Shown piece after piece: positions 3,001-9,000 of a stretch of DNA of 10,514 bases. The DNA is from a virus (taxonomy: Duplodnaviria; Heunggongvirae; Uroviricota; Caudoviricetes), in IMG/VR virus record IMGVR_UViG_2698536533_000007; one strand, 5' to 3'. Each line of letters opens with the position of its first letter. The first letter of the stretch is position 1. Made by a program: the position numbers.

Positions 3001-6000
3001 TTTTACCAGAGAGCAGTTAATAGCTCACGCAGAGGAGACTATTGAAGCACAGAGACTGTGCATACCGGGCACAATCGACCATGACATCATCCGCACATAT
3101 AAGATGGATATTGCTGTTCTGGAAATCGCACTGGTATCGCTGGCAGCAGAGCCAGCCGGTAAATTGCATGAATACAAACCAGTGGGATATCAGCGTCTGG
3201 TCGATGAGTTAACCATGCTGGTAAAGCAGTTAACCTGGCAACTGAGGAAAGCGAAGCCAGACTGCAAATTACCGGATAAGGCGATGAGTTATCTGGAGCG
3301 GAACGGACTGATAAGCGTGGAGGATATTTTACGATGACCTGGCCTGAAGCATTAACAACGGTAGGAATTGCGATGGCGGTGGCGCTGGTGGTGTATTCGA
3401 TTTGCCGCTGGGGATAAAAACGGTTTGCGGGAAAAGGAGAGTTAAGTAGAATTGCAGCGGGTGCTTGAGGCTATCTGTCTCAGGCATGAACACCAAAAGG
3501 CAGATAGAGAAAAGCCCCAGTTAACATTACGCGTCCGGCAAGACGCTTAACATTAATCTGAGGCCAATTTCATGCTTTGCACATGTAGGTTAGCCTCTTA
3601 CATGCCGAAAGGCAAGGAGAAGCAGGCTATGAAGCAGCAAAAGGCGATGTTAATCGCCCTGATCGTCATCTGTTTAACCGTCATAGTGACGGCACTGGTA
3701 ACGAGGAAAGACCTCTGTGAGGTACGAATCCGAACCGGCCAGACGGAGGTCGCTGTCTTCACAGCTTACGAACCTGAGGAGTAAGNNNNNNNNNNNNNNN
3801 NNNNNNNNNNNNNNNNNNNNNNNNNNNNNNNNNNNNNNNNNNNNNNNNNNNNNNNNNNNNNNNNNNNNNNNNNNNNNNNNNNNNNNNNNNNNNNNNNNNN
3901 NNNNNNNNNNNNNNNNNNNNNNNNNNNNNNNNNNNNNNNNNNNNNNNNNNNNNNNNNNNNNNNNNNNNNNNNNNNNNNNNNNNNNNNNNNNNNNNNNNNN
4001 NNNNNNNNNNNNNNNNNNNNNNNNNNNNNNNNNNNNNNNNNNNNNNNNNNNNNNNNNNNNNNNNNAACGCGTTTGAAGTTTTAGATGGTGCCGGAATAGA
4101 ATCAAAAATACTTAAGTAGCGCGCAGGGAGAAGAGGGATGGACCCCGAACAGGGGAGAGCTATTTATCTGGAAGGATTCTGAAGATGAAAATCGAAGAAT
4201 TGCGTGAAATTTTTAGTGAAAATGGCCTCTATGCTGNNNNNNNNNNNNNNNNNNNNNNNNNNNNNNNNNNNNNNNNNNNNNNNNNNNNNNNNNNNNNNNN
4301 NNNNNNNNNNNNNNNNNNNNNNNNNNNNNNNNNNNNNNNNNNNNNNNNNNNNNNNNNNNNNNNNNNNNNNNNNNNNNNNNNNNNNNNNNNNNNNNNNNNN
4401 NNNNNNNNNNNNNNNNNNNNNNNNNNNNNNNNNNNNNNNNNNNNNNNNNNNNNNNNNNNNNNNNNNNNNNNNNNNNNNNNNNNNNNNNNNNNNNNNNNNN
4501 NNNNNNNNNNNCAAACCTCTTCCGGATTACTTCTCCCGGCGACGCCGGAGAGTTGCGATTTTCTGCATCAAATCAAAATAGGTGAGTGGATACACGCAGA
4601 CTTTAAGCGTGTGTGTAACTACGCATTCCACAAGCGTTTTTTCAAACTCCTGCAACTGGGTTTCGATTACTGGACTCCGGTCGGTGGGGCGATCACGCCT
4701 CGCGAACGAAAACTGGTGTCCGGTTTCGTTGATTACNNNNNNNNNNNNNNNNNNNNNNNNNNNNNNNNNNNNNNNNNNNNNNNNNNNNNNNNNNNNNNNN
4801 NNNNNNNNNNNNNNNNNNNNNNNNNNNNNNNNNNNNNNNNNNNNNNNNNNNNNNNNNNNNNNNNNNNNNNNNNNNNNNNNNNNNNNNNNNNNNNNNNNNN
4901 NNNNNNNNNNNNNNNNNNNNNNNNNNNNNNNNNNNNNNNNNNNNNNNNNNNNNNNNNNNNNNNNNNNNNNNNNNNNNNNNNNNNNNNNNNNNNNNNNNNN
5001 NNNNNNNNNNNNAATGCACCCACACTTAACCCGCTTCGGCGGGTTTTTGTTTTTATTTTCAACGCGTTTGAAGTTTTAGATGGTGCCGGAATAGAATCAA
5101 AAATACTTAAGTAGCGCGCAGGGAGAAGAGGGATGGACCCCGAACAGGGGAGTGCTATTTATCTGGAAGGATTCTGTTGATGAAAATCGAAGAATTACGT
5201 GAAATTTTTAGTGAAGATGGCCTCTATACTGTGCGCGTTGAGAATGGCGCTATTGTCAGCCACTGCCTTCCAGACTACACAATTCTGATAATTCAGCCGT
5301 CTTTGCCAGCAGGCACGGGCGGCGCTCTCACGCATTTAAATCTGATTGGTACCAGCATCCCCCATGCACTGAAGAACAGGCCGAATGGCTCATTCAGTGT
5401 TACCGCAGGCGCGGATGCGAGGTTAAAAAAGCCCTTAGCCTCGACTACCGTCACTGGATAATCTCCGTCAGGCTCCCTTACTCCGAACGGCCAACGCGTC
5501 CGTCCCGCACATTCCAGCAACGGATCTGGAGGTAATGTGCGGGTATTACTTCGACCTGTTCTGGTACCGGAACTCGGTCTGGTTATCGTTAAGCCAGGCC
5601 GTGAATCAATGTCAGCATTCCATAACGGCAGAATACTGGTGGAGCCGGAACCAAAAAGCATGCGTAATCTGCCGTCCGGGGTCGTTCCTGCCGCTCGCCA
5701 GCCGCTGGTGGAAGACAAAACATTGCTGCCGTTTTTCAGTAACGCACGGGTGATTCGTGCTGCTGGTGGTGCTGGTGCATTGTCTGACTGGCTGTTGCGC
5801 CATATTAAATCCTGCCAGTGGCCACACGGCGATTATCATCACAGCGAAACCGTCATTCACCGTTATGGTACCGGCGCAATGGTGTTGTGCTGGCACTGCG
5901 ACAACCAGCTGCGTGACCAGACATCCGAATCACTCGAGCAACTTGCTCATCAAAACCTGTCAGCATGGATGATTGACGTCATCGGTCACGCAATAAGCGG

Positions 6001-9000
6001 TACGCAGGAGCGTGAATTATCTCTGGCTGAATTATCCTGGTGGGCGGTCCGCAATCAGGTGGCGGACGCGCTACCGGAAGCGGTATTACGTCGTTCGCTG
6101 GGGTTGCGTGCGGAAAAAATTCGCTCTGTGTACAGTGAAAGCGACATCATACCGGGAGAGCAGACAGCCACCAGCATACTGAAGCAGCGCACAAAAAATA
6201 TTGCGTTACTGCCTCACGTCCACCAGCAACAGAACCCACCACAGGAAAAGACGGTGGTCAGCATTGCCGTTGATCCGGAGTCACCGGCTCAGTATCTCCA
6301 GCGCCAGAAATCACAACGGGAAGAGATGCCTGTATACACGCGCTGGGTAAAAACGCAGAAATGCATGACGTGTGGCAATCAGGCAGATGATCCGCATCAC
6401 ATCATTGGTCATGGACTGGGAGGGATGGGAACAAAGGCTGATGATTTGTTTGTTATTCCGTTATGCCGTAAATGCCGTAACGAACTACATGCCGGAGTAA
6501 NNNNNNNNNNNNNNNNNNNNNNNNNNNNNNNNNNNNNNNNNNNNNNNNNNNNNNNNNNNNNNNNNNNNNNNNNNNNNNNNNNNNNNNNNNNNNNNNNNNN
6601 NNNNNNNNNNNNNNNNNNNNNNNNNNNNNNNNNNNNNNNNNNNNNNNNNNNNNNNNNNNNNNNNNNNNNNNNNNNNNNNNNNNNNNNNNNNNNNNNNNNN
6701 NNNNNNNNNNNNNNNNNNNNNNNNNNNNNNNNNNNNNNNNNNNNNNNNNNGCAATAAAAATTATTGCAGAACCACCGGATAAGCGCCGCCGTGACCTGGA
6801 CAATATTCTGAAAGCGCCGCTGGATGCGCTGACGCATGCGGGGTTGCTAATGGACGATGAGCAGTTTGATGAAATCAATATCGTTCGTGCTCAGCCAGTA
6901 TCTGGTGGACGTCTGGGGGTGAAGATTTATCCCATAATGCTTGAAGGGCAGGTCAAAAAATGAAACTGGAAGATTTACCGAAATACTACTCCCCAAAATC
7001 CCCCGGCCTGACTGATGCATCGGCCTCAACGTCGAAAGATGCGCTGAGTATCACTGATGTGATGGCCGCGCAGGGCATGACACAGAATCGGGCTGAGATG
7101 GGGGTTTCTGCGTTCCTTGGGAAAATGGGCATTAGTATGAATGACAGAGAGCGGGCAACAGAATTGCTGACAGAATATGCACTCAGTCGGTGTGATCGCG
7201 TGGCGGCGTTAAGAAAACTCCCGGCAGAAATAAAACCGGCAGTGATGCGTATTATGGCTTCGTATGCGTTTGAAGATTATGCCCGTAGCGCGGCGAGCAA
7301 AAAACAGTGCCCCTGCTGTCACGGAAAAAAATTTATTGAAAGCGAGGTTTTTACAAACAAGATCCAGTATCCGGATGGTAAGCCGCCGGTATGGGCAAAG
7401 TGTACGAAAGGTGTGTATCCGTCTTACTGGGAAGAATGGAAAAAAGTCAGGGAGGTGGTAAAAGTTGCCTGTCCGGAGTGTGGCGGAAAGGGTGAGGTTT
7501 CCACCGCCTGTAAGGATTGCCGTGGGCGTGGTGTCGCCATTCATCGTGAAGAGTCGGTAAAACGTGGTATGCCTGTTATCAGAGACTGCCAGCGTTGTGG
7601 TGGTCGTGGCTATGAAAGACTACCATCAACGGAGGCATTTAATGCTATATGCGAGGTGACAAACCAGATAACACGCGCGTCATGGGAAAAAACAGTTAAG
7701 AAATTTTATGATGCGCTGGTGACCCGGTTTGATATTGAAGAAGCATGGGCTGAGCGGCAGTTAAAAAAGGTAACTAGGTAACAAGGTTGATTTTTCCGGA
7801 ATCTGTGGTAAATTCGTTATAACGATGGGCGTTTTATGCCTGACGTTAGAAGAGTTTCTACAACCCGCCGCCGAGCGGGTTTTTTATGACTGAAATCGCG
7901 TCAGTACAGTAAACGCGCTGGTGGCGGTGAATACCTGTCTTTCAGCTTGCTGGCTTTTTCGACAAGAGTTATTGGTGTGTCACGTTAACCGGAAAAGGAA
8001 AAGACATGCTAAAACAGCAGGATATGACAGAAACCGCCAGAGTGGTGTTTAATGAATTAAGCGTTACCGAACCGGCGACAGTCGGGGAGATAGCGCAGAA
8101 TACTTACCTTTCACGCGAACGCTGCCAGTTAATACTGACCCAGCTGGTTATGGCGGGTCTGGCAGACTATCAGTTCGGTTGTTACAGACGCCTTCCGCAG
8201 TGAAGGCTTTTTTATTTGTGGTAAATGGGCGGCTGGTGGGTGTTAGGGGCACCCACCAGCCATCTGCTCATGCGTTGGGTTCACAAGCAAACCTCAGGCC
8301 CACTGCTTTGCGCAAAAGCAGAATGAGCCTATCAGAGACAGGCTTAATGATCCATGCTTAATACTGTAAAAATATCCAGTTGTGAGTTAATCAACGCCGA
8401 CTGCCTGGAATTTATCCGGTCGTTACCCGAAAATTCTGTTGACCTGATAGTCACGGACCCGCCGTACTTTAAAGTGAAGCCTGAGGGCTGGGATAACCAG
8501 TGGAAGGGCGACGATGATTACCTGAAGTGGCTGGACCAGTGTCTGGCGCAGTTCTGGCGGGTGCTGAAACCTGCCGGAAGTCTTTACCTGTTCTGTGGTC
8601 ATCGCCTGGCATCTGATATCGAAATCATGATGCGTGAACGCTTCAGTGTGCTGAACCATATTATCTGGGCGAAGCCGTCCGGACGCTGGAACGGATGCAA
8701 CAAGGAAAGCCTGCGGGCGTATTTCCCCGCCACAGAGCGCATTCTGTTCGCGGAACATTATCAGGGGCCGTATCGTCCGAAAGATGCCGGGTATGCGGCG
8801 AAGGGCAGTGCACTGAAACANNNNNNNNNNNNNNNNNNNNNNNNNNNNNNNNNNNNNNNNNNNNNNNNNNNNNNNNNNNNNNNNNNNNNNNNNNNNNNNN
8901 NNNNNNNNNNNNNNNNNNNNNNNNNNNNNNNNNNNNNNNNNNNNNNNNNNNNNNNNNNNNNNNNNNNNNNNNNNNNNNNNNNNNNNNNNNNNNNNNNNNN

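What the first reader, a model, noticed from the sequence alone, without database searches (positions are those of the whole stretch)
5537..6500. Large prophage protein with C-terminal HNH-like zinc finger, next to RusA
The C-terminus has CxxC...HH...CxxC...H (CMTCGNQADDPHHIIGHGLGG...CRKCRNELH), resembling the HNH nuclease fold. The N-terminal 250 aa show no motif I recognise. An HNH-type protein just upstream of a Holliday-junction resolvase and Q could be a DNA-processing or anti-defence function rather than a structural gene. My assignment to the DUF968 family is from memory and is uncertain.
Basis: partly seen in the sequence, partly recalled or inferred. Interest (0 to 1): 0.5.

Follow-up and report, generated by a model that had tools for sequence, protein, structure and literature searches.

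The report
YdfU-type prophage HNH nuclease gene
This is an ordinary, very common E. coli prophage gene of the YdfU/DUF968 family, whose C-terminal end is a zinc-stabilised HNH nuclease finger related to phage recombination nucleases; the only unusual point is that this copy has an arginine where the family keeps a metal-binding histidine.

Summary
An ORF starts at GTG 5537 and runs into the N-mask at 6501, leaving 321 aa visible; close relatives are 352 aa. It carries C276xxC279…H287H288…C310xxC313…H318.

DUF968/YdfU was already classed as His-Me finger group 7, with RusA and Q as typical neighbours, in 2017. The gene sits in the early "nin" region of a lambdoid prophage, between replication genes and rusA–Q. 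It most likely nicks or cuts DNA during phage recombination or replication.

Two additions:
- The His after the second Cys pair is His in 115/115 close and 34/41 diverse relatives. It aligns with Gp16 H185. Here it is Arg314, so this copy may be catalytically weakened.
- The N-terminal 160 aa hold a second Cys/His cluster. Its likeness to HNH is not significant.

Known family; low novelty.

The parts
5528..5532 (+). Shine-Dalgarno-like GGAGG, 4 nt before the GTG start. The stop (TAA 5533-5535) of the small upstream ORF lies between the two.
   Evidence: Read from the sequence. Upstream ORF translated.
5537..6499 (+). Visible part (321 aa) of the YdfU-type DUF968 protein gene. It continues into the mask 6501-6750. 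Relatives are 352 aa.
   Evidence: PHROG 96 E=1.4e-149 over the full length. One residue different from WP_052977201.1 over the visible part.
5537..5926 (+). N-terminal domain (aa 1-130): small beta sheet, helices, then a beta-hairpin plus helix. No family assignment in Pfam. PHROG 11007 covers it alone.
5813..5905 (+). Conserved Cys/His cluster of the N-domain: C93-Q94 … H101-H102 … C118-W-H-C121-D122-N123. Probably a structural zinc (treble-clef-like) site.
   Evidence: Column conservation in 41 diverse homologues: C93 39/41, C118 41/41, position 121 is Cys or His in 41/41, D122 38/41. Predicted strands 105-110 and 113-118, helix 119-125.
5927..6361 (+). Helical middle region and low-confidence linker (aa 131-275). 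Pfam DUF968 starts at aa 160 (nt 6014).
   Evidence: pLDDT below 50 at aa 228-240.
6362..6490 (+). His-Me (HNH) finger core. Zn ligands C276, C279, C310 and C313. Beta-1 carries H287-H288, with H288 the presumed general base. D303 is invariant. The helix carries R314 (His in the family) and H318.
6476..6478 (+). Codon CGT = Arg314, at the position that is His in 115/115 close and 34/41 diverse relatives. It aligns with phiNM1 Gp16 H185 and P1 Ref H134.
6754..6963 (+). C-terminal 69 codons of rusA (Holliday-junction resolvase). Its start is hidden in the mask.
6960..7781 (+). Antiterminator Q gene, overlapping the rusA stop (ATGA).
5028..5045 (+). Terminator-like hairpin plus T-run upstream of the ydfU-rusA-Q block, comparable in position to the nin-region terminators of lambda. 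Consensus match only.
7862..7881 (+). Terminator-like hairpin plus T-run just after Q. Consensus match only.

Best explanation
The ORF encodes a YdfU-type member of the DUF968 family, a standard gene of the 'nin' region (between the replication genes and Q) of lambdoid prophages of E. coli and other Proteobacteria. The protein has three parts: an N-terminal domain with a probable structural zinc site (aa 1-130), a helical middle part, and a C-terminal zinc-stabilised His-Me (HNH) finger (aa 276-318) followed by a helical tail. The finger is homologous to E. coli YbcO (DUF1364), to the P1 Ref nuclease and to phiNM1 Gp16 (HNHc_6). The last two are experimentally shown DNA nickases/endonucleases that work with RecA. 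Inferred mechanism: the gene is transcribed with the early-right operon together with rusA and Q. Its product binds duplex or branched DNA. Four Cys hold the finger. H288 activates water, and a divalent metal is held by H287, H314 and H318. The resulting nicks or breaks feed phage recombination or recombination-dependent replication, and RusA then resolves the junctions. In this copy the metal-ligand position 314 is Arg, so the enzyme is probably attenuated (slower, or restricted in metal use or in which strand it cuts) or inactive. Shown here: family membership, fold, motif conservation, gene context and the R314 substitution. Inferred: nuclease activity, substrate, any RecA link and the effect of R314.
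For: Family membership: Pfam DUF968 E=2.8e-53. PHROG 96 'HNH endonuclease' E=1.4e-149 over aa 1-320. 88-98% identity to DUF968 proteins found widely in E. coli, and 4552 of 5426 complete E. coli genomes match some part of window 5100-7100. Phage records name the gene 'YdfU family protein'.
Profile links: Gp16 E=9e-9 in register, YbcO E=5e-7 and Ref E=1.2e-4. There are reciprocal above-threshold Pfam hits, Gp16 to DUF968 and the full-length homologue to HNHc_6.
Experimental relatives: Gp16 nicks plasmid DNA, is stimulated by RecA and needs its zinc-finger residues (PMC12817073). Ref cuts RecA-made D-loops, and its active-site metal is held by three His (PMC3973344).
Prior classification: DUF968 and DUF1364 form His-Me finger group 7, with RusA and Q as neighbours (PMC5714182).
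Context: six divergent homologues all lie after prophage replication genes. Three are followed within one or two genes by Q. One is directly followed by a VRR_NUC nuclease, and another has rusA two genes upstream.
R314: His in 115/115 close relatives and 34/41 diverse ones.
Against: No member of the YdfU clade has been tested biochemically. No PDB sequence hit is significant for the whole protein. The N-terminal modules of Ref (disordered and basic) and Gp16 (NinB-like) are absent here, so a RecA link cannot be carried over. In Gp16, H185A (the equivalent of H314) only partly relieved toxicity, so R314 need not abolish function. The R314 allele persists as an intact 352-aa ORF in four genomes from Mali, Bangladesh and the UK. 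RusA adjacency is not universal. The C-terminus of this copy is masked and cannot be checked.
Confidence: 0.6

Rival explanations
1. This copy is a catalytically dead remnant. The prophage is decaying, R314 has removed the metal site, and the product at most binds DNA or does nothing.
For: R314 replaces a near-invariant His. The family contains clearly degenerate members that have lost both HH and this His: P0198, P0200 and P0220. Signs of decay or rearrangement lie nearby. There is a duplicated 5' fragment of the DUF1367 gene at 5177-5254, and the small upstream ORF has lost its start. The spacing across the masks differs from relatives by 13 nt and 4 nt, which would shift frames if the masks keep length. 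Databases hold many YdfU N-termini joined to tail-fibre, J or portal fragments, as expected from prophage deletions.
Against: All other motif residues are intact. The R314 allele is kept as a full 352-aa ORF in three protein variants in four genomes. Gp16 H185A keeps part of its effect, and Ref H153A still nicks. The frame discrepancies both fall inside masks, and may therefore reflect masks that do not preserve length.
Confidence: 0.25
2. It is a host-takeover or counter-defence effector. Like phiNM1 Gp16, it damages or condenses host DNA to stop host replication and bias towards lysis, rather than serving phage recombination. The reader's 'anti-defence' idea belongs here.
For: The HNH domain is homologous to Gp16, which arrests host growth through RecA. 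The gene is in the early operon.
Against: There is no PADLOC match and no defence or anti-defence neighbours. The gene is carried by most E. coli genomes in resident prophages. The N-terminal module differs from that of Gp16. There is no direct evidence.
Confidence: 0.1
3. It is a terminase-associated or homing HNH endonuclease.
For: PHROG and Pfam give weak similarity to generic phage HNH endonucleases (PHROG 131 and 7370; Pfam HNH_5 E=0.29).
Against: The gene lies between replication genes and Q, not next to terminase or portal genes, in the window and in six divergent relatives. Where a terminase is visible it is the lambda Nu1/GpA type. There is no intron or intein context. The gene is a stable syntenic component rather than a sporadic insertion.
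Confidence: 0.03

Closest known systems
E. coli Qin-prophage YdfU / Pfam DUF968 (PF06147), His-Me finger group 7 of Jablonska et al. 2017
   Same: The window protein is a member. It has a full-length profile match, the same length class (about 350 aa), the same motif, and the same neighbours (hokD upstream, rusA and Q downstream).
   Different: It has Arg314 instead of the conserved His. The C-terminal 31 residues are masked.
E. coli DLP12 YbcO (DUF1364, PDB 3g27)
   Different: YbcO is the 96-aa finger alone. The window protein has about 260 extra N-terminal residues and does not hit the Pfam YbcO model.
Bacteriophage P1 Ref (PDB 3plw), a RecA-dependent HNH endonuclease
   Different: Ref has a disordered basic N-terminus and a different gene context. 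Sequence similarity is marginal (E=1.2e-4). RecA dependence is untested for YdfU.
S. aureus phage phiNM1 Gp16 (Pfam HNHc_6), a RecA-stimulated nickase (Xu et al. 2026)
   Same: The HNH domain is homologous (hhalign 95.7%, E=9e-9), with reciprocal above-threshold Pfam hits. It is an early-operon gene with rusA about 3 kb downstream in the same phage.

Membership tests
Pfam DUF968 (YdfU-like) | Profile match above the curated gathering score | tested here: met
   180.9 bits against a cutoff of 27.8, E=2.8e-53, aa 160-319. The full-length homologue scores 211.5 bits.
Pfam DUF968 (YdfU-like) | Full-length collinearity with YdfU-type proteins, including the N-terminal domain | tested here: met
   PHROG 96 aligns aa 1-320 to profile positions 1-305 of 334. 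Homologues at 28-51% identity align end to end.
His-Me finger / HNH superfamily | Beta-beta-alpha fold at the motif | tested here: met
His-Me finger / HNH superfamily | Catalytic His at the end of beta-1 | tested here: met
   H288 is present. It is conserved in 37/41 relatives and aligns with Gp16 H157 and Ref H113.
His-Me finger / HNH superfamily | Metal-ligand His/Asn at the start of the alpha-helix (after the second Cys pair) | tested here: not met
   The window has Arg314. The family has His in 115/115 close and 34/41 diverse members. H318, one turn later, is present.
His-Me finger / HNH superfamily | Structural zinc site CxxC…Cxx[C/H] | tested here: met
   C276, C279, C310 and C313 are present and conserved. 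Actual zinc binding is not testable here.
His-Me finger / HNH superfamily | Match to a curated HNH-clan Pfam model | tested here: inconclusive
   HNHc_6 scores 21.1 bits, below the 26.6 cutoff, for the masked window protein. It scores 30.2 bits, above the cutoff, for the full-length 98%-identical homologue.
His-Me finger / HNH superfamily | Metal-dependent nuclease activity | not testable with these tools
   Needs purified protein.
RecA-dependent phage nucleases (P1 Ref, phiNM1 Gp16) | Homologous HNH domain | tested here: met
RecA-dependent phage nucleases (P1 Ref, phiNM1 Gp16) | Their N-terminal module (basic disordered tail in Ref, NinB-like domain in Gp16) | tested here: not met
RecA-dependent phage nucleases (P1 Ref, phiNM1 Gp16) | Binding to, or stimulation by, RecA | not testable with these tools
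   Needs pull-down and nuclease assays.
YbcO / DUF1364 | Match to Pfam YbcO (PF07102) | tested here: not met
   No YbcO hit for the window protein at E up to 1. It is related only at profile and fold level.
Terminase-associated HNH | Gene adjacent to terminase or portal genes | tested here: not met
   It lies between replication genes and rusA-Q here and in relatives.
Known anti-phage defence proteins (PADLOC) | Profile match | tested here: not met
   No family at E up to 0.01.

The most novel reading that the evidence does not exclude
The rare Arg314 allele could be a selected, attenuated form of a potentially host-toxic prophage nuclease, for example a slower or nick-only enzyme that resident prophages tolerate. 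Separately, the conserved N-terminal Cys/His domain could be a degenerate second His-Me finger from an ancient internal duplication, giving a pseudo-dimeric nuclease whose inactive half positions branched DNA.
Probability: 0.12. Interest if true: 0.4.

Novelty: already known. Interest (0 to 1): 0.18.

Why it matters
It matters little as a discovery. The gene family, its HNH fold and its RusA/Q neighbourhood are already in Pfam, RefSeq and the 2017 His-Me finger classification, and most E. coli genomes carry a copy. The useful points are practical:
- The YdfU clade still has no biochemistry, although it is among the commonest prophage genes of E. coli.
- Relatives characterised between 2011 and 2026 (P1 Ref, phiNM1 Gp16) now give a concrete, testable hypothesis: a RecA-linked nickase that feeds RusA.
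- Natural H314 and R314 alleles offer a ready-made active-site comparison.

Tried and rejected
1. Internal duplication (N-domain as a second HNH finger).
   - BLASTP of the N region against the C region gave E=0.055, and hhalign gave E=0.03 in register.
   - The hhalign score of 13.4 lies within column-shuffled controls (mean 10.1, sd 2.6, max 18.4).
   - The N-domain has no conserved His at the end of beta-1.
   - I kept this only as a speculative reading.
2. Direct PDB sequence searches. Nothing was significant: phmmer found no relevant hit, the full-length profile gave only 3g27 at E=0.53, and the C-domain profile gave 3g27 at E=0.18 among C2H2 zinc-finger noise.
4. Domain fusions as functional clues. 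The long proteins that share the N-domain are joined to tail-fibre, J-protein or portal fragments. These are most simply deletion scars or chimeric calls, so they are uninformative.
5. Counting the R314 allele with a 45-mer. The His-version control also found no exact match, so this measure is too sensitive to silent variation and I dropped it.
6. Recovering the masked C-terminus. No record in the E. coli collection matches both flanks at 100%. Relatives have 263 nt where the window has 250 N, so the true end of this copy cannot be stated.
7. NCBIfam gave no model for this protein.
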